The translations under genes and the position numbers were made by a program. 64,000 nucleotides of DNA. Source: Candidatus Dormibacteria bacterium. GTDB lineage: Bacteria; Chloroflexota; Dormibacteria; Aeolococcales; Bog-877. The notes under the pieces were generated by a model, which saw only the letters and a list, made by a program, of their open reading frames with translations, did no database searches and had not been told where the DNA came from. How positions within the stretch are numbered: position 1 is the first letter of the stretch; every line of letters starts with the position of its first letter. The stretch spans positions 6,934-70,933 of the forward strand of contig JBOHUL010000083.1 of assembly GCA_050734425.1 (NCBI GenBank), in the 5' to 3' direction. This document shows, piece after piece, positions 12,697 to 17,597 of the stretch.

Positions 12697-13743
12697 ATGG
12701 GTGCCAGGGTGGAGCGACTCATCGACCTCCGCAGCGATACCGTCACCCGGCCCTCGGCGGGGATGCGCCAGGCGATGGCCCGGGCCGAGGTCGGTGACGA
12801 CGTGTTCGGCGAGGATCCCACCGTCAACCAGCTGGAGGAGCGGGTGGCGGAGCTCCTGGGCAAGGAGTCCGCCCTGTTCTGTCCCAGCGGGACCATGGCC
12901 AATCTCATCGCGGTCGTGAGCCCGACCTCGCCCGGGGATGAGGTGCTGGTGGATGGCGAGGCCCACATCCTCCACTACGAGCTGGCGGGATCGGCGGTCA
13001 TCGGAGGCGTGCAACTGCGCAACTTCGACGCGCCCCCCAGCGGTTGTCCCTCGCCGGCGCAACTGCAGCGTCTCAACCGCTTGGGCGACCCCGACCACGA
13101 ACCCAGGACCAGGCTCCTCTGCCTGGAGCAGAGCCACAACCGCCGCGGGGGGACCGTGGCTGCGGTGGAGGAGCTGGAGCGGAGCACCGCGGCCGCTCAC
13201 GCGCTGGGGCTCTCGGTCCACCTCGACGGCGCCCGCCTCGCCAACGCGGCCGCCAGCCTGGGCGTGGCCGTCTGCCGCCTGGCGGAGTCGGCCGACTCGG
13301 TGACCTTCTCACTCTCCAAGGGGCTGGGGTGCCCCGCGGGCAGCCTCTGGGTCGGGCCCAGCGCAGGCAGGGTTCAGGCCCACACCTGGCGCAAGCGCCT
13401 CGGCGGCGGCATGCGCCAGGTGGGGATCCTGGCGGCGGCGGGCCTGTGGGCCCTGGACCACAACCTGGACCGCATCGCAGAGGATCAGCTCAAGGCGCAG
13501 CGGCTGGCGCAGTCACTCCACGACTGCCGCGGGCTGCGCCGTCCGCCCGCCAACGCCGCCACCAACATCGTTCTCCTGGAGACTGAGCAGGAGGCGGAGG
13601 TGGTGGTGGCGGAGGCGGCCCGGCTGGGCGTCCTGACCGTGCCCTTCAGTCAGCACACCGTGCGCTGCGTCACCCACCTCGATGTCAGCGATGCCGACGT
13701 CGCCGAGGCCGGGCGCCGTCTGGGACGAGTGCTCGCCGGCTGA
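12697..13743 (+). CDS. ltaE: Low-specificity L-threonine aldolase
   Basis: [11 protein letters not shown]...CPSGTMANL...SLSKGLG match the threonine aldolase / beta-eliminating lyase fold. Confidence 0.8.
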
Positions 13744-13766
13744 GGCGGCGGGGCACAAATAAAGAG

Positions 13767-13790
13767 GAGCGGGCTTTGGGCCCGCTCCTC
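13767..13790 (-). terminator. Intrinsic terminator for the minus-strand basic-protein gene
   Basis: A perfect 9-bp stem GGAGCGGGC/GCCCGCTCC with a 5-nt loop. On the minus strand it is followed by TCTTTATTTGTG (a U-tract), and on the plus strand by TCATCAAG. Confidence 0.6.
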
Positions 13791-13817
13791 ATCAAGATGC
13801 GCTGGGTTGCGGTCGAG

Positions 13818-14417
13818 TCAGCTGCCGCTGCTCAAGAGCACCCGACCTCCGCGCCGCCCCGTCCGCCGAGCGGGGGCCGCCGCAGAGGTTTTGGCCGGAG
13901 TGGTGCGGCGGCTGGTCGCCCGCGGCCGCCGGGTCCGCGGGGTTGCGCTGCGACGTGGTGTCGCCGCGGCGGTGCGACCGGTCCGGCGCCGACGTGTCGT
14001 AGTCGTGGTCGCCGGGCTGCGTCCGCGAGAGGTGCTGCGCGCCGCCGTCCGACGCCCGCCGGTGCTCGCGGTGCGACGCCGCACCGTCCGGCTTCCAGGG
14101 CGACGTGCGCTGGTGGTGCTGCTGGCGCGGCCCACGGCCGCGTCCAACTTCTTCTCGATTTCGACCAGGTGCTTCTCCAACGCCTTGAGCTGCGCGGTCA
14201 GCGCCCGCGTCGACGCCGCGCTCGAGGTCGCGGCCGCGGTGCTGCGCCGGGCGGCGGGGCGCCGGGCGGTGGTGCGCCGCACGCTGGTGCGCCTGCTGGC
14301 GGCACTGCGCACGCCAGTTCGCGCGCTGGCGCGCCTGGTGCTGGACCTTCGTGTGGTCCTAGAGGCAGGACGCGCGGCGGTGCGCCTTGTGCCTGTTCTC
14401 CTCGTCGTTCGGGGCAT
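13818..14417 (-). CDS. Highly basic Arg/Thr/Ala/Ser-rich low-complexity protein (199 aa) with one short amphipathic helix
   Basis: Within ORF 13818..14576 the ATG at 14417 is preceded by AGGAGG 10 nt upstream. The product is MPRTTRRTGTRRTAARPASRTTRR... with a single coiled-coil-like stretch, LTAQLKALEKHLVEIEKKLDAAV, and the gene is followed by an intrinsic terminator. Confidence 0.5.
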   Translation of the reverse strand: MPRTTRRTGTRRTAARPASRTTRRSSTRRASARTGVRSAASRRTSVRRTTARRPAARRSTAAATSSAASTRALTAQLKALEKHLVEIEKKLDAAVGRASSTTSARRPGSRTVRRRTASTGGRRTAARSTSRGRSPATTTTTRRRRTGRTAAATPRRSATPRTRRPRATSRRTTPAKTSAAAPARRTGRRGGRVLLSSGS

Positions 14418-14566
14418 CAGCTCTGATCCTCCTGTTGGCTTCGGGGGGAATGGTGTCGAGTGCACCCCGAAGTTCGGACTGTCTTTGGGAGTATTTCCGC
14501 TCGGTTGAGTTGTGACGTGGGCGGTGACTGCGCCAAGTGCGGTGTCGCGGCCGTCGACCGGACCTG

Positions 14567-14581
14567 ATTGTGTCACACAAT
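14567..14581. promoter_or_regulatory. 15-bp perfect palindrome ATTGTGTCACACAAT in the divergent region between the basic-protein gene and gdh
   Basis: Read directly from the sequence. It lies about 80 nt upstream of the gdh ATG. Confidence 0.35.
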
Positions 14582-14660
14582 CGCGGTTTGATGCCGCCGT
14601 GTCAACTAGTTCGGACGAATTGGTTGGGCGTCGGTCGTAGCTGATGGTGATCGGGTCGAG

Positions 14661-15971
14661 ATGCCAACCAGGTCACGGGGCGAGCCATATACTTCTCCTG
14701 TGACCGTCGCCGCGTCGACCTCGGGCAACGAAGACCTCTACACCACAGCACAGCATCGGGTCGACCAGGCGGCGGAGTTGCTCCATCTCGACGACGAGGC
14801 GCGCTTGGTCCTCCGTGAAGTCAAGCGCGTCTTTCAGGTCCACTTCCCCGTTGTGGCCGACGATGGCTCGGTAGAGGTCTTCGTCGGTAACCGGGTGCAC
14901 CACAGCATCGCCCTGGGCCCGGCCAAGGGAGGTGTTCGCTACGAGGCCGAGGCGACTCTGGATCAGACCAAGGCGCTGGCCATGTCCATGTCCTGGAAGA
15001 GTGCACTGATGTCACTTCCGTTCGGTGGAGCCGCCGGCGCCGTGTGCGTCGATCCGCATCGCATGAGTGCACGCGAGCTGGAGCGGCTGACTCGGCGCTA
15101 CACGACCGAAATCAGCCTGCTGCTCGGCCCGGAGCGGGACATCCCTGCGCCGGACATCGGCACGACCCCTCAGATCATGGCCTGGATCATGGACACGCTC
15201 TCGATGCACGCGGGGTACTCGGTGACCGCGTCGGTCACCGGCAAGCCCATCGAGGCGGGGGGGTCGTTCGGACGGGTGGAGGCCGCGGGCCGGGGCATGG
15301 CGACGATCCTGGTGCATGCTCTGCGCAACACCGGTCTCAGCCTGAACGGTGCGACAGTAGCGGTCGAGGGGTACGGCAAGGTCGGCAGGACCTGTGCCCG
15401 CCTGCTGTCCGAGGCTGGCTGCCGGGTTGTGGCGGTGTCGGACAGCCATGAGGGTTGGCACTGCGACGCCGGTCTGGACCTGCAACGGTTGGAAGAGGCC
15501 AAGGCGCATGGCGGCGGGCTGACCGATGCCCACGTCCCCGGTGAGCGGATCACCCGGGACGAGCTTCTGTCGCTCCCGGTTACTGTTCTGGTCCCGGCGT
15601 CGGTCGAGTCCACGATCAACAGTGCCAACGCCTCCAAGGTGCGGGCCCGCATCGTCGCCGAGGGTGCCAACAGCCCGATCACGCCGGCGGCCGAGGCGGC
15701 GCTGGCGGAGGATGGCATCGTCATCGTGCCCGACATCCTCGCCAATGCCGGCGGGGTGACAGTCTCCTACTTCGAGTGGGTGCAGGACCTGCAGTCGTTC
15801 TTCTGGGACGAGAACGAAATCAACTCACAGCTGCAGCAGGCCATGCTCCGAGCCAGCGAGCAGGTGTGGGCCTACCACGGCCAGAAGAAGGTGTCGCTGC
15901 GCCAGGCCGCCTACCTGATCGCGGTGGGGCGGGTGGCGCGGGCGTCCAAGGTCAGGGGTATCTACCCCTGA
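14661..15971 (+). CDS. gdhA: Glutamate dehydrogenase (Glu/Leu/Phe/Val dehydrogenase family)
   Basis: The 436-aa product has GPAKGGVRY, a catalytic Lys region and the NAD-binding VEGYGKVG motif. Confidence 0.85.
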   Translation: MPTRSRGEPYTSPVTVAASTSGNEDLYTTAQHRVDQAAELLHLDDEARLVLREVKRVFQVHFPVVADDGSVEVFVGNRVHHSIALGPAKGGVRYEAEATLDQTKALAMSMSWKSALMSLPFGGAAGAVCVDPHRMSARELERLTRRYTTEISLLLGPERDIPAPDIGTTPQIMAWIMDTLSMHAGYSVTASVTGKPIEAGGSFGRVEAAGRGMATILVHALRNTGLSLNGATVAVEGYGKVGRTCARLLSEAGCRVVAVSDSHEGWHCDAGLDLQRLEEAKAHGGGLTDAHVPGERITRDELLSLPVTVLVPASVESTINSANASKVRARIVAEGANSPITPAAEAALAEDGIVIVPDILANAGGVTVSYFEWVQDLQSFFWDENEINSQLQQAMLRASEQVWAYHGQKKVSLRQAAYLIAVGRVARASKVRGIYP

Positions 15972-16739
15972 TCAGTGCGCCAGGCGCAGGTAGGGCACCC
16001 GCTGGCGCCGGGACTCAGTGCGAGGTGGCTGATACTCGAAGCGATAGCCGGCGCCGATGACGGCGTGGAGGTAGCGGGCGCCATCGTGGCGTGGCTGGAT
16101 CTTGCGCCGTAGACGGTACAGGTGGGCGTCGAGGGAGTGGACCCGATAGGGGTCGCGGTTGCGCCAGACCTCGGCGATGAGCTGGGGTCGGGGAACCACG
16201 GCCCCGGCCTGCCGCGCCAGCGTCACCAGGATGCGGAACTCGGTTGGAGTCAGCCCCACCGGGCGGCCGTCCCTGCGGACCTCGTGGCGACCGACGTCGA
16301 TGCTGAGCCCGGGGTAGTGCAGCCGCTCGGTGCCGCCTGCCTCGCGGCTCAAGCGGGCCCGGCGCAGACGGGCGTTGATCCGGGCCACCAGCTCCCGCAC
16401 CTGAAAGGGCTTGCGCAGGTAGTCGTCGGCGCCGACCTCGAGGCCCACCACCACATCCTCGGGTTCGTGCAGGCAGCTGATCATGAGGACGGTTACCTTG
16501 ATTCCTGCAGACCGCAGCCGTCGGCAGACCTCGATGCCGCTCATGTCCGGCAGCACCAGGTCCAGCAGCACCAGGTCGGGGTCGCTCTCCATAGTCAGGC
16601 GTAGGCCTGCCGCGCCGGTGGTCGCGGTCACTACTTGATATCCGTTCTCGGCCGCGATCAGCTCGACCAGGCGCAGCAGCGCGGGGTCGTCGTCAATGAC
16701 GAGAATCTTGGACGCGGCCAGGTCCGGTGAGGCTGTCAC
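15972..16739 (-). CDS. OmpR-family response regulator (REC plus winged-helix)
   Basis: Within ORF 15972..17090 the GTG at 16739 (VTASPDLAASKILVIDDD) is preceded by GGAGGG. The product has a receiver domain followed by a winged helix (LTPTEFRIL...GYRF). Confidence 0.8.
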   Translation of the reverse strand: MTASPDLAASKILVIDDDPALLRLVELIAAENGYQVVTATTGAAGLRLTMESDPDLVLLDLVLPDMSGIEVCRRLRSAGIKVTVLMISCLHEPEDVVVGLEVGADDYLRKPFQVRELVARINARLRRARLSREAGGTERLHYPGLSIDVGRHEVRRDGRPVGLTPTEFRILVTLARQAGAVVPRPQLIAEVWRNRDPYRVHSLDAHLYRLRRKIQPRHDGARYLHAVIGAGYRFEYQPPRTESRRQRVPYLRLAH

Positions 16740-16860
16740 CGACCCCCGCCCTCCATCGGTGGCGGCGCTGGCGAATTGACTCACGCACCGATTGTGTCCG
16801 GGGGAGTCGAAATGCCAAGTTTTGGTATGGGCACGGCTGCGTAACAAGCTGCGCGGCGGA

Positions 16861-16879
16861 TGTGACACCCAAAGGTCAC
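16861..16879. promoter_or_regulatory. Inverted repeat TGTGAC-N8-GTCAC in the divergent regulator/sortase promoter region
   Basis: TGTGACACCCAAAGGTCAC. A related ATTGTGTCC half-site sits at 16791..16799. Both share a core with the gdh-upstream palindrome. Confidence 0.3.
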
Positions 16880-16925
16880 GATCCGAGTTCAGGTAGGATG
16901 GGGCGGGGAAAGCACGGAGCGGGCG

Positions 16926-17597
16926 ATGAAGAGTATTTGGCGCAATCTCGCGGGCGGCAGCCGCAGTCGGCGTGTGGCGACACTGCTGACGGCGGCCGGC
17001 GTTCTGCTGATCGTCGCCGGCCTGGCCGTCTTCATCCCGCCGCTGGTACAGCTGGGGCAGCGCGCCAACGCCGACAGCCAGGCGCTGCACCAGTGGAAGG
17101 ATCCGGGCTCCGCCCTGGCCAACCGCCTGCCCGAGAGCAAGACTGACACCCTTCCCAACTCAACCCCCGGAAGCACCTCTCCCAGCTGCGGCAGCGGCGC
17201 GCCCAGTTCCTCCTACGCCCTCATCGACTTCCCCAGCCTGTCGGGGATCGAGGGCGTCGCCGGCAACGGAACCTGGTCGATGCTCCACGTCCGCTCGGTG
17301 GTCCACTACGCCTCCAGCCCGGGCCCGGGCCAACCGGGCAACGGCATCTACGCCCTCCACCGGGAGCCCAACTTCGAGCCCCTCGGCACCCTCAAGGTCG
17401 GCGACACGATCGTTCTGACCGACCGGGACTGCCAGCAGTTCACCTACGTCATCCGCCAGACGTGGACCGAGTACCCCGCCCAGGTCACCCAGTTGCAGCC
17501 GCTGAGCCAGGGCACCTGGATCACGGTCATCACCTGCACCCCCCTGTGGCTCGACTACCAACGGCTGGTCCTCCGGGCCCAGCTTCAGGCCACCTGA
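16926..17597 (+). CDS. Sortase-family transpeptidase (class E-like)
   Basis: N-terminal TM anchor, a His in LHVRSVVHY, and the catalytic Cys in the TLxTC-like motif WITVITCTP. Confidence 0.65.
   Translation: MKSIWRNLAGGSRSRRVATLLTAAGVLLIVAGLAVFIPPLVQLGQRANADSQALHQWKDPGSALANRLPESKTDTLPNSTPGSTSPSCGSGAPSSSYALIDFPSLSGIEGVAGNGTWSMLHVRSVVHYASSPGPGQPGNGIYALHREPNFEPLGTLKVGDTIVLTDRDCQQFTYVIRQTWTEYPAQVTQLQPLSQGTWITVITCTPLWLDYQRLVLRAQLQAT

What the first reader, a model, noticed from the sequence alone, without database searches (positions are those of the whole stretch)
13767..14440. Extremely basic Arg/Thr-rich intrinsically disordered protein with a strong SD and a clean intrinsic terminator
The minus-strand ORF from the ATG at 14417 has AGGAGG 10 nt upstream. 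It encodes 199 aa made almost entirely of R, T, A and S (RTTRRTGTRRTAARPASRTTRRSSTRR...), with a single amphipathic helix (LTAQLKALEKHLVEIEKKLDAAV). It ends in a textbook hairpin plus T-tract terminator that is oriented for this strand only. High-GC DNA yields such low-complexity frames on both strands, and the plus-strand ORF 13807..14508 is the mirror image, so the terminator and SD are the main evidence this one is real. If real, it resembles protamine-like or nucleoid-associated polycationic proteins, RNA chaperones, or polyphosphate/nucleic-acid binders.
Basis: partly seen in the sequence, partly recalled or inferred. Interest (0 to 1): 0.55.

Follow-up and report, generated by a model that had tools for sequence, protein, structure and literature searches.

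The report
Unannotated polycationic zipper protein of Dormibacterota
The minus-strand ORF is a real, conserved gene of an uncultured soil phylum (Dormibacterota) that encodes a very positively charged, mostly disordered protein with a central leucine zipper, probably a nucleic-acid or polyanion binder, and NCBI records annotate its locus on the wrong strand.

Summary
ATG 14417, AGGAGG 10 nt upstream, a 199-aa R/T/A/S-rich product (net charge +53), one amphipathic helix and a minus-strand hairpin plus T-tract terminator are all present.

The gene is real. Seventeen distinct intact orthologues occur in Candidatus Dormibacterota MAGs and soil metagenomes. All lie in the same place: GAF-GGDEF > aldolase > < this gene, gdh > < response regulator. 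Only this frame is open in all 17. Its dN/dS (0.26) is the lowest of the six frames. Start codon, GGAGG and terminator are conserved.

Three protein motifs are conserved:
- N-terminus: MPRTxRRTG
- Centre: a 4-3-4-3 leucine zipper, QLKALEKRLxDIEKKLD
- C-terminus: RRGRVTL
Between them lie fast-evolving TTARR-type pentapeptide repeats.

No curated family matched (Pfam, NCBIfam, PHROGs), and the PDB gave nothing meaningful. A scan of 1.84 billion protein representatives found only two frameshifted copies. NCBI annotates the mirror ORF instead; that frame shares the wobble position and has the more "gene-like" GC pattern.

Most likely function (inferred, untested): a self-associating polycation that binds DNA, RNA or polyphosphate. 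It would be an Arg/Thr analogue of the histone-H1-like proteins AlgP, PhaF and Hc2. I rate it a new family of a known kind, of moderate interest.

The parts
13818..14417 (-). Coding sequence (199 aa plus TGA) of the Arg/Thr/Ala/Ser-rich polycationic protein
   Evidence: The ORF is present. There are 17 distinct intact orthologues. dN/dS is 0.26, the lowest of the six frames. It is the only frame open in all orthologues. Within each amino acid, codon choice resembles that of neighbouring genes.
14428..14433 (-). Shine-Dalgarno AGGAGG, 10 nt before the ATG
   Evidence: Read from the sequence. GGAGG is invariant in the 10-locus intergenic alignment and lies within 25 nt of the start in all 23 loci examined.
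14370..14417 (-). Conserved N-terminal motif MPRTTRRTGTRRTAAR (family consensus MPRTxRRTGxxRxxxR)
   Evidence: Alignments. M1, P2, R3, T4, R12 and R16 are invariant.
14133..14201 (-). Central amphipathic helix and leucine zipper, residues 73-95. Hydrophobic residues fall at 73, 77, 80, 84, 87, 91 and 94. It holds the only acidic residues in the protein.
   Evidence: Q76, L77, K78, L80, E81, L84, I87, E88, K90, L91, D92 and A94 are invariant. Changes between orthologues are synonymous or conservative. AlphaFold2 pLDDT is 96-97 here.
14236..14293 (-). 15-nt (pentapeptide) tandem repeat inside the N-terminal basic region, coding RRTTARRPAARR-type units
   Evidence: Tandem Repeats Finder: period 15, 2.3-2.4 copies. 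L003 carries 4.7 copies of an ARKTT-type unit. Repeat and indel differences are in frame: L084 vs L087, and a 24-nt in-frame gap between the window and L094.
13833..13856 (-). Conserved C-terminal motif RRGGRVLL (family consensus RRGRVTL), followed by a short tail of small residues
   Evidence: Alignments.
13757..13790 (-). Intrinsic terminator: GAGGAGCGGGC-CCAAA-GCCCGCTCCTC followed by TTTATTT
   Evidence: Terminator scan. A hairpin sits at the same position in 8 orthologues with differing stem sequences. It is followed by a T-rich tail in all but L008.
14566..14605 (-). Conserved promoter-like block. It reads TTGACA (14605-14600), 17 nt, then GATTGTGTGACACAATC (14582-14566). The second element is a perfect 8-1-8 palindrome that also reads as an extended -10, TGTGnCACAAT.
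   Evidence: Intergenic alignment. The spacing is fixed in 20 of 23 loci. The palindrome occurs once in the 64-kb window. In L008, where another ORF separates the gene from gdh, TGTGcCACAAT stays with this gene. The consensus scan tool did not call it a promoter. The transcription start is not determined.
14418..14565 (-). Putative 5' leader of about 150 nt with conserved sequence blocks (CACGTCACAAC...) and a G+C-rich hairpin (14472-14439) 5 nt upstream of the SD
   Evidence: Conserved columns in the intergenic alignment. Every orthologue folds a hairpin just upstream of the SD, with different stems: GGCGC/GCGCC, CTTCGGGG/CCCCGAAG, GGTGTTGC/GCAGCACC. RNAalifold support is weak. No Rfam match.
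13807..14508 (+). Mirror (shadow) ORF. It is not a gene, but it is what NCBI annotates as 'hypothetical protein' in related records.
   Evidence: P0003 and P0004 are NCBI 'hypothetical protein' entries on the opposite strand. The two antisense frames that are fully open in the window are each broken by an internal stop in several orthologues. dN/dS is 0.43 for the wobble-sharing antisense frame, against 0.26 for the true frame.

Best explanation
Window 14417-13818 (minus strand) is a real, single-gene transcription unit with a promoter-like block, a leader of about 150 nt, a strong SD, the coding sequence and an intrinsic terminator. It encodes a lineage-specific protein of a clade of Candidatus Dormibacterota.

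The protein consists of two long Arg/Thr/Ala-rich arms, probably disordered, with a net charge of +53 to +62. The arms flank a short central leucine zipper. Short conserved motifs sit at both ends (MPRTxRRTG and RRGRVTL).

Shown here: the gene is real, it is under purifying selection, and the architecture is conserved.

Inferred: the zipper makes the protein dimerise or form higher oligomers, and the polycationic arms bind polyanions without sequence specificity. DNA or RNA is most likely; polyphosphate is possible. One oligomer could then bridge or condense nucleic acid. This is the way the histone-H1-like bacterial proteins AlgP, PhaF and Hc2 are thought to work, here with TTARR-type Arg/Thr pentapeptides in place of KPAA-type Lys/Ala/Pro repeats.
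For: The gene is real:
- Orthologues with identical local synteny occur in 10 GTDB-genome loci and 12 JGI metagenome loci, plus L094 and L095.
- ATG and GGAGG are conserved.
- Differences between orthologues by codon position are 0.38/0.21/0.55.
- dN/dS is 0.26. The mirror frame gives 0.43 and the other four frames 0.88-3.4.
- It is the only frame open in all 17 orthologues.
- The terminator is conserved with changed stems.
- Synonymous codon choice matches that of neighbouring genes.

Architecture:
- Zipper residues are invariant and spaced 4-3-4-3.
- AlphaFold2 pLDDT is 96-97 on the zipper and below 55 on the C-terminal half.
- Net charge is +53 to +62, and all acidic residues lie in the zipper.
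- Pentapeptide repeats show in-frame copy-number changes.

Analogy to known proteins:
- AlgP carries a net charge of +55 and has a disordered KPAA-repeat domain. The domain binds DNA and associates with polyP granules (PMC9239181).
- PhaF combines a short leucine zipper for oligomerisation with a histone-like tail (PMC3574117). Its KPAA region also binds RNA (PMC12818456).

Expression signals: exact TTGACA, a TGTGnCACAAT element, AGGAGG and a strong terminator are consistent with an expressed gene.
Against: - No binding, oligomerisation or expression data exist. The function rests on composition and analogy.
- There is no detectable homology to any characterised family. DUF5320 reaches 21.9 bits against a cut-off of 27. 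HC2 matches only 2 of 8 orthologues. NCBIfam and PHROGs give nothing. The PDB gives only a coiled-coil-like hit to SEC20 at E = 0.0026.
- Thr at 19-24% is unlike known histone-H1-like tails and is unexplained.
- The conserved end motifs suggest specific partners that a plain polyanion-coating model does not explain.
- The AlphaFold2 model came from a single sequence. It also makes residues 18-70 helical, which may be over-prediction.
- All orthologues come from one fairly narrow clade (gdh 72-85% identical).
Confidence: 0.6

Rival explanations
1. The protein is chiefly an RNA-binding or ribosome-associated factor rather than a chromosome-binding protein. It could be an RNA chaperone, a translation regulator or a condensate scaffold. 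It may regulate itself through its long conserved 5' leader.
For: The KPAA disordered region of PhaF binds mRNAs upstream of the SD and activates translation (PMC12818456). This gene has a conserved leader of about 150 nt with a hairpin just upstream of the SD in every orthologue. That arrangement recalls self-regulating ribosomal-protein operons (general knowledge). Arg-rich disordered regions are typical RNA binders (general knowledge).
Against: No RNA-binding domain was found. There is no Rfam family in the leader. The consensus structure of the leader is weak. The gene is not in a ribosomal or translation gene cluster.
Confidence: 0.2
2. The protein tethers or organises a polyanionic or storage inclusion, such as polyphosphate or PHA granules, relative to the nucleoid. 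The conserved end motifs would be docking sites.
For: AlgP, with the same net charge of about +55, localises to polyP granules and spaces them (PMC9239181). PhaF tethers PHA granules to DNA (PMC3574117). Conserved terminal motifs on an otherwise fast-evolving protein suggest specific partners.
Against: No polyP or PHA gene lies among the annotated neighbours. There is no phasin-like or other granule-binding domain. Nothing is known about such inclusions in these organisms.
Confidence: 0.1
3. The protein is a nitrogen-responsive product co-regulated with the divergent gdh gene. One version is an Arg-rich nitrogen reserve. Another is a nitrogen-status regulator.
For: The head-to-head arrangement with gdh is conserved, and the intergenic palindrome is shared. 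The protein carries 1.7-1.84 nitrogen atoms per residue, against 1.36-1.41 in neighbouring proteins.
Against: In L008 the gene is separated from gdh by another ORF and keeps its own promoter-like element and leader, so linkage to gdh is not obligatory. Conserved synteny in a narrow clade is weak evidence of co-function. A zipper and conserved end motifs would be unnecessary for a storage polymer.
Confidence: 0.04
4. The plus-strand mirror ORF (13807-14508), which NCBI annotates as a hypothetical protein in relatives, is the real gene. Alternatively, neither strand is coding and the open frames are a by-product of 70% GC.
For: The mirror frame has the GC1 > GC2 pattern typical of this genome's genes. 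It was called by NCBI's pipeline in two records. Its dN/dS of 0.43 is below 1.
Against: The mirror frame shares wobble positions with the true frame, which by itself lowers its dN/dS. It is interrupted by stops in several orthologues. The conserved ATG plus GGAGG and the T-tract terminator all belong to the minus strand. The minus frame has the lowest dN/dS. The minus frame shows conserved motifs separated by in-frame repeat indels.
Confidence: 0.03

Closest known systems
AlgP and PhaF of Pseudomonas (histone-H1-like KPAA-repeat proteins)
   Same: Both have a long, disordered, polycationic low-complexity region built from short tandem peptide repeats whose copy number varies. Net charge is of the same size: AlgP +55 (PMC9239181) against +53 to +62 here. 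PhaF also has a short leucine zipper used for oligomerisation (PMC3574117). Their ligands are DNA, polyP granules and RNA (PMC9239181, PMC12818456).
   Different: No sequence homology. The repeats here are Arg/Thr/Ala pentapeptides (TTARR, TTARK) rather than Lys/Pro/Ala (KPAA). Here the zipper sits in the middle between two basic arms, with no folded or phasin-like N-terminal domain. The conserved MPRTxRRTG and RRGRVTL end motifs have no counterpart. Ligand binding is untested here.
Chlamydial histone-like Hc2 (Pfam PF07382 HC2) and Hc1
   Same: Small, extremely basic, repeat-containing proteins that condense DNA in a dormant cell form (general knowledge). Two of 8 orthologues give weak HC2 matches, best E = 4.7e-4.
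   Different: The window protein has no HC2 match at E <= 0.1. Hc2 is Lys/Ala-rich (general knowledge), and no zipper is known in it to my knowledge. The weak matches look compositional.
Pfam DUF5320 (PF17253, function unknown)
   Same: It is the best-scoring family: 6 of 8 orthologues match, best E = 4.2e-4. The match spans the basic N-terminal half and the helix (residues 2-92 against profile positions 14-97 of 99).
   Different: The match is below the curated cut-off (21.9 against 27 bits). The family has no known function, and the literature search found no functional data. The resemblance could be only a basic low-complexity region followed by a coiled coil.
C-terminal Lys/Ala/Pro tails of actinobacterial HU (HupB/Hlp/MDP1), and eukaryotic protamines, histone H1 and SPKK motifs
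   Same: These are polycationic, disordered DNA-condensing segments. Short TPRR, TPRK and TPAR-type tetrapeptides in this protein resemble S/T-P-K/R-K/R minor-groove motifs (general knowledge; sequences).
   Different: There is no HU fold or any other folded domain. Arg is only about 25%, against more than 50% in protamines (general knowledge). There is no homology, and this protein has a zipper.
bZIP transcription factors
   Same: A basic region lies N-terminal to a leucine zipper.
   Different: The 12-14 residues just before the zipper are not basic (TAPSAASLNRTLT) and include a conserved Pro in most orthologues. So there is no continuous basic helix feeding into the zipper. A second, longer basic arm follows the zipper.

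Membership tests
Pfam DUF5320 (PF17253) | Whole-protein HMM score at or above the curated gathering cut-off of 27 bits | tested here: not met
   The score is 21.9 bits, E = 4.2e-4, for the window protein. This is the best among 8 orthologues, and 6 of 8 match only below threshold.
Chlamydial Hc2 (Pfam PF07382) | HMM match to the HC2 profile | tested here: not met
   The window protein has no match at E <= 0.1. Only 2 of 8 orthologues match, best E = 4.7e-4.
Chlamydial Hc2 (Pfam PF07382) | Lys/Ala-rich repeat composition | tested here: not met
   Arg is 23-26% and Thr 19-24%. Where Lys is among the six commonest residues it is only 3-7%.
AlgP/PhaF histone-H1-like C-terminal domain | Tandem KPAA (or KPVA, KTAAA) repeats | tested here: not met
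   No KPAA repeats. The repeats are 15-nt pentapeptide units of the TTARR or TTARK type.
AlgP/PhaF histone-H1-like C-terminal domain | Long disordered polycationic region with a net charge of several tens | tested here: met
   Net charge is +53 to +62. pLDDT is below 55 over the C-terminal half. AlgP is +55 (PMC9239181).
AlgP/PhaF histone-H1-like C-terminal domain | Binding of DNA, RNA or polyP granules | not testable with these tools
   Needs recombinant protein (EMSA, microscopy).
PhaF-type phasin | N-terminal PHA-binding phasin domain | tested here: not met
   No phasin or any other Pfam domain was found.
PhaF-type phasin | Short leucine zipper that mediates oligomerisation | tested here: inconclusive
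   A 4-3-4-3 heptad pattern is present and invariant: L73, L77, L80, L84, I87, L91, A94. Oligomerisation itself cannot be tested here.
HU/IHF-type nucleoid proteins with basic tails (HupB/Hlp) | HU/IHF DNA-binding fold | tested here: not met
   No Pfam or NCBIfam match. The PDB profile search found only a weak SEC20 coiled-coil hit.
bZIP | Basic DNA-contacting region continuous with, and immediately N-terminal to, the zipper | tested here: not met
   The residues before the zipper are a non-basic linker, with a conserved Pro in most orthologues. No bZIP Pfam match.
Intrinsic (Rho-independent) terminator | G+C-rich hairpin followed directly by a T-tract on the transcribed strand, downstream of the stop codon | tested here: met
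   11-bp stem with 9 G-C pairs, then TTTATTT, starting 27 nt after the stop codon. A hairpin is conserved in 8 orthologues with changed stem sequences, followed by a T-rich tail in all but L008.

The most novel reading that the evidence does not exclude
The protein is a charge-switchable bacterial counterpart of protamines or SR proteins. The unusually high and conserved Thr content, set among Arg residues (RRxT and TPRR-type sites), would serve as phosphorylation sites. Ser/Thr kinases could then tune the polycation's grip on DNA or RNA. That would allow reversible nucleoid or ribosome shut-down during the long dormancy thought to characterise Dormibacterota. Expression might be coupled to nitrogen status through the promoter region shared with gdh.
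Probability: 0.08. Interest if true: 0.75.

Novelty: new variant of a known kind. Interest (0 to 1): 0.42.

Why it matters
Why it would matter if true:

1. It adds a conserved, probably well-expressed structural protein to the very thin functional knowledge of Candidatus Dormibacterota, an uncultured soil phylum. It is a candidate for how these organisms package DNA or RNA.

2. It shows a compositional solution not described for bacterial histone-H1-like proteins: Arg/Thr pentapeptides, a central zipper and conserved end motifs.

3. It is a clear case of a systematic annotation failure.
   - In 70% GC DNA the antisense frame that shares the wobble position looks more gene-like than the true frame.
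   - NCBI records carry the shadow ORF.
   - The intact protein is absent from a collection of 15 billion protein sequences.
   - Families of this type are therefore invisible to protein-centred surveys and may be under-counted in high-GC lineages.

Tried and rejected
Searches that found nothing useful:
- A profile search with a 45-column zipper alignment against the 5.8-billion-protein index returned nothing, not even P0001. An HMM built locally from the same eight zipper segments scores the L001 ORF that encodes P0001 at 79.6 bits. I treat this as a limit of the word prefilter, not as evidence of absence.
- The full-length search in the word-indexed database was swamped by low-complexity candidates and found only P0001.
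- The exhaustive phmmer scan found only P0001 and P0002. Both appear to be frameshifted versions of this gene.
- Pfam, NCBIfam, PHROGs and PDB gave no meaningful match. PADLOC was not run.
- Rfam has no family in the region 13000-15500.
- Exact-sequence look-ups of the window's proteins and of seven intact orthologues found none on record.
- More distant gdh loci (L012-L081) contain neither the family nor any comparable polycationic ORF. The window has no paralogue.

Tests that did not discriminate:
- GC by codon position cannot decide between the strands and, if anything, favours the wrong one.
- RNAalifold on the leader gives only weak consensus structure.

Readings considered and rejected:
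- An upstream in-frame GTG start at 14576 (252 aa). The extension is not conserved, orthologues have in-frame stops about 18 codons upstream of MPRT, and indels in the leader are not multiples of 3.
- Sigma-54 promoter, CRP, TnrA/GlnR or Fur-box readings of the palindrome. Spacing and key bases do not fit. This rests on my own reading against remembered consensus sequences, not on a tool test.
- A Tat signal peptide. No hydrophobic segment follows the Arg residues.

Not attempted: a fold search of the AlphaFold2 model. A single long helix plus disorder would match any coiled coil.
Full report
**1. What is in the sequence**

On the minus strand, AGGAGG (14433-14428) lies 10 nt before an ATG (14417). 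The frame runs to TGA at 13820-13818 and encodes 199 aa.

The product is R 26%, T 19%, A 18%, S 13%. Its net charge is +53. It has no aromatic residue and no Cys. All four acidic residues lie within residues 81-92.

Twenty-seven nt after the stop comes an 11-bp hairpin with 9 G-C pairs (13790-13764), followed by TTTATTT. This was the only terminator-like site in 13300-15000, and it is oriented for the minus strand. The description is accurate.

**2. Sequence statistics do not settle the strand**

GC by codon position:

| Frame | GC1 | GC2 | GC3 |
|---|---|---|---|
| Minus-strand frame (this gene) | 0.59 | 0.87 | 0.82 |
| Mirror ORF 13807 (+) | 0.82 | 0.59 | 0.79 |
| Four neighbouring genes (approx.) | 0.75 | 0.50 | 0.88 |

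The coordinates show that the mirror frame shares its third codon positions with the minus frame. GC3 therefore cannot discriminate between them, and the GC1/GC2 pattern favours the wrong strand. One terminator-like site against 0.7 expected by chance is not significant either.

**3. Comparative evidence that the gene is real**

Finding the relatives:
- A first protein search found one relative, P0001. It is identical over the first 16 residues and 72% identical over the helix. Its 1.5-kb contig has the same layout, gdh < > this gene > < aldolase. The gene there is frameshifted after the helix.
- Using the neighbouring GDH as a handle identified the organism as Candidatus Dormibacterota. It also gave ten close loci, L002-L011, with GDH 72-85% identical.
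- Nine of these carry an orthologue on the strand opposite to gdh. L010 holds no sequence upstream of gdh, so it cannot be assessed.
- A metagenome scan with zipper-derived patterns added 12 more loci. Two NCBI contigs, L094 and L095, came from the mirror-ORF search.
- The gene order is the same everywhere: GAF-GGDEF > beta-eliminating lyase (threonine-aldolase-like) > < this gene, gdh > < OmpR-type response regulator.

Tests across 17 distinct intact orthologues, which are 38-56% identical to the window protein apart from the 98% identical L094:
- Pairwise differences by codon position are 0.38/0.21/0.55.
- Nei-Gojobori dN/dS over 108 ungapped codons is 0.26 in this frame, 0.43 in the wobble-sharing mirror frame and 0.88-3.4 in the other four.
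- This is the only frame open from end to end in every orthologue. The two antisense frames that are open in the window are each broken by a stop in several others.
- The closest relative, L094, differs by 10 substitutions (3/0/7 by codon position) and one in-frame 24-nt repeat indel.
- ATG and GGAGG are invariant.
- The terminator hairpin recurs at the same place with different stem sequences.
- Synonymous codon preferences match those of neighbouring genes.

I consider the gene real, with probability of about 0.97.

**4. Anatomy of the protein**

Three short segments are conserved in an otherwise fast-evolving low-complexity chain:
- N-terminus: MPRTxRRTGxxRxxxR.
- Centre: QLKALEKRLxDIEKKLDxA. 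Hydrophobic residues fall at 73, 77, 80, 84, 87, 91 and 94, a regular 4-3-4-3 leucine-zipper spacing of about 3.5 heptads.
- C-terminus: RRGRVTL, followed by 3-9 small residues.

Between them lie Arg/Thr/Ala-rich arms of about 60-70 and 100-150 residues. The arms are built partly from pentapeptide (15-nt) tandem repeats such as TTARR and TTARK. They show in-frame repeat and indel differences between close relatives.

Across orthologues, net charge is +53 to +62, Thr is 19-24% and Arg is 23-26%.

AlphaFold2 on the single sequence gives pLDDT 96-97 on the zipper and below 55 on the C-terminal half. It also extends the helix back to residue 18. I do not rely on that extension, given the single-sequence input and the Pro and Gly residues in that stretch.

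**5. Regulatory surroundings**

The region between this gene and gdh (243 nt in the window) carries a conserved block in this gene's orientation. It reads TTGACA (14605-14600), exactly 17 nt, then GATTGTGTGACACAATC (14582-14566).

- The spacing is fixed in 20 of 23 loci.
- The second element is a perfect 8-1-8 palindrome in the window and a 7-3-7 palindrome in most relatives. It occurs once in 64 kb.
- It can be read as TTGACA-N17-GATTGT, as an extended -10 (TGTGnCACAAT), or as an operator.
- Its right half is the better conserved.
- In L008 a methyltransferase-like ORF separates the gene from gdh. There, TGTGcCACAAT and the leader motifs stay with this gene.

I therefore assign the block to this gene's promoter. 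The scan tool did not call it, and the transcription start is unknown.

This implies a leader of about 150 nt. The leader has conserved sequence blocks and a G+C-rich hairpin just upstream of the SD in every orthologue, with differing stems. Consensus-structure support is weak and there is no Rfam match.

**6. Relationship to known families**

- Curated libraries: no Pfam match reached its curated cut-off, and NCBIfam and PHROGs gave no match at E <= 0.01.
  - The best Pfam match is DUF5320, at 21.9 bits against a cut-off of 27, in 6 of 8 orthologues. Its function is unknown, and the literature search found no functional data.
  - HC2 matches 2 of 8 orthologues weakly.
- Structures: a family profile against PDB sequences finds only a coiled-coil-like hit to SEC20 at E = 0.0026.
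- Exhaustive search: phmmer over 1.84 billion cluster representatives finds only P0001 and P0002. Both appear to be frameshifted calls of this same gene.
- Exact look-ups: none of seven intact orthologue sequences is present among about 15 billion proteins.
- Mirror ORF: searching with it finds two NCBI 'hypothetical protein' entries, P0003 and P0004. They lie on the opposite strand of this gene in L094 and L095. In L095 the minus-strand gene is not called at all.
- Distribution: more distant Dormibacterota or Chloroflexota gdh loci lack the family and any comparable ORF.

The family is therefore narrow, uncharacterised and effectively unannotated.

**7. Most likely mechanism (inferred)**

The architecture is two polycationic flexible arms joined by a zipper. 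This predicts a self-associating, multivalent polyanion binder. The closest functional analogues are:
- AlgP: net charge +55, with a disordered KPAA-repeat domain that binds DNA and associates with polyP granules (PMC9239181).
- PhaF: a short leucine zipper for oligomerisation plus a histone-like tail (PMC3574117). The tail also binds mRNA leaders (PMC12818456).
- Chlamydial Hc1/Hc2 and the basic tails of actinobacterial HU (general knowledge).

By analogy, an oligomer would coat and bridge DNA or RNA.

Three observations remain unexplained: the high conserved Thr content, the invariant N-terminus and the C-terminal RRGRVTL motif. They suggest specific partners or modification, for example phosphorylation of RRxT sites.

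Rivals, with my estimates:
- A mainly RNA- or ribosome-directed role: 0.2.
- Granule tethering: 0.1.
- A nitrogen-linked role with gdh: 0.04.
- The mirror ORF or no gene: 0.03.

**8. Verdict**

This is a new, lineage-restricted family of a known kind, the polycationic disordered nucleic-acid or polyanion binders. Its composition and architecture are unusual.

Interest is moderate. There are no functional data and the likely function is not surprising. Against that, the gene is conserved, probably well expressed and belongs to an uncultured phylum. It also documents a reproducible wrong-strand annotation in high-GC DNA.

Noticed in passing
L094:254-886 (+) against L094:172-795 (-); L095:3234-3929 (+) against L095:3161-3784 (-): NCBI records annotate the antisense shadow ORF as 'hypothetical protein' (P0003, P0004) and, in L095, do not call the conserved minus-strand gene. 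None of seven intact orthologue sequences is in a collection of 15 billion proteins.
   Followed up: yes
L001:696-1258; P0001 and P0002: The only database proteins from this family appear to be frameshifted versions. P0001 switches frame after the zipper, and P0002 begins in another frame. Intact versions of the same gene type exist in L082 and L083. This suggests assembly or sequencing errors in the GC-rich repeats.
   Followed up: partly
window 14566-14605 (minus-strand reading): A conserved TTGACA-N17-GATTGTGTGACACAATC block lies between this gene and gdh. The 17-bp palindrome occurs once in 64 kb. It could be an operator shared by the divergent genes or an extended -10 promoter (TGTGnCACAAT). 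No binding factor was identified.
   Followed up: partly
window 14439-14472 (minus strand), and the same position in orthologues: A G+C-rich hairpin lies just upstream of the SD in every orthologue, with different stem sequences: CTTCGGGG/CCCCGAAG, GGCGC/GCGCC, GGTGTTGC/GCAGCACC, GCGGCG/CGCCGC. This suggests a conserved leader structure, but it was not supported statistically.
   Followed up: partly
L008:2767-4000: In one MAG a methyltransferase-like ORF (…DIGCGTGTLACLLAQRG…) is inserted between this gene and gdh. The polycationic gene keeps its leader and TGTGcCACAAT element but loses TTGACA and the left arm of the palindrome.
   Followed up: partly
window 15972-17090 (minus strand): The mechanical ORF for the OmpR-type response regulator is 372 aa, but the receiver domain starts at residue 129. 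NCBI aa in L095, and most tblastn matches begin near residue 97. The true start is probably internal.
   Followed up: no
L094 (JBOGYO010001421.1); L003, L019, L024 record titles: Contigs carrying this Dormibacterota-type locus, or related gdh loci, are labelled Solirubrobacteraceae, Acidiferrales, Terriglobales or Sulfotelmatobacter MAGs. L094 is about 95% identical in nucleotide sequence to the window across this gene. Mis-binning of short contigs is likely.
   Followed up: no
window 13764-13790: The terminator hairpin lies 21 nt past the stop (13743) of the convergent aldolase-like gene. It could also stop that transcript, although the T-tract is only on the minus strand; the plus strand has an A-rich run before the stem.
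   Followed up: no
window 16926-17597 (+); L095:6289-6960: In L095 a sortase-family gene is annotated after the response regulator, followed by an IMPDH-like gene. The window has a 223-aa ORF at the corresponding position (its family not checked here), followed by IMPDH-like and GMP-synthase genes. This is a housekeeping-type neighbourhood with no obvious functional link to the polycationic gene.
   Followed up: no
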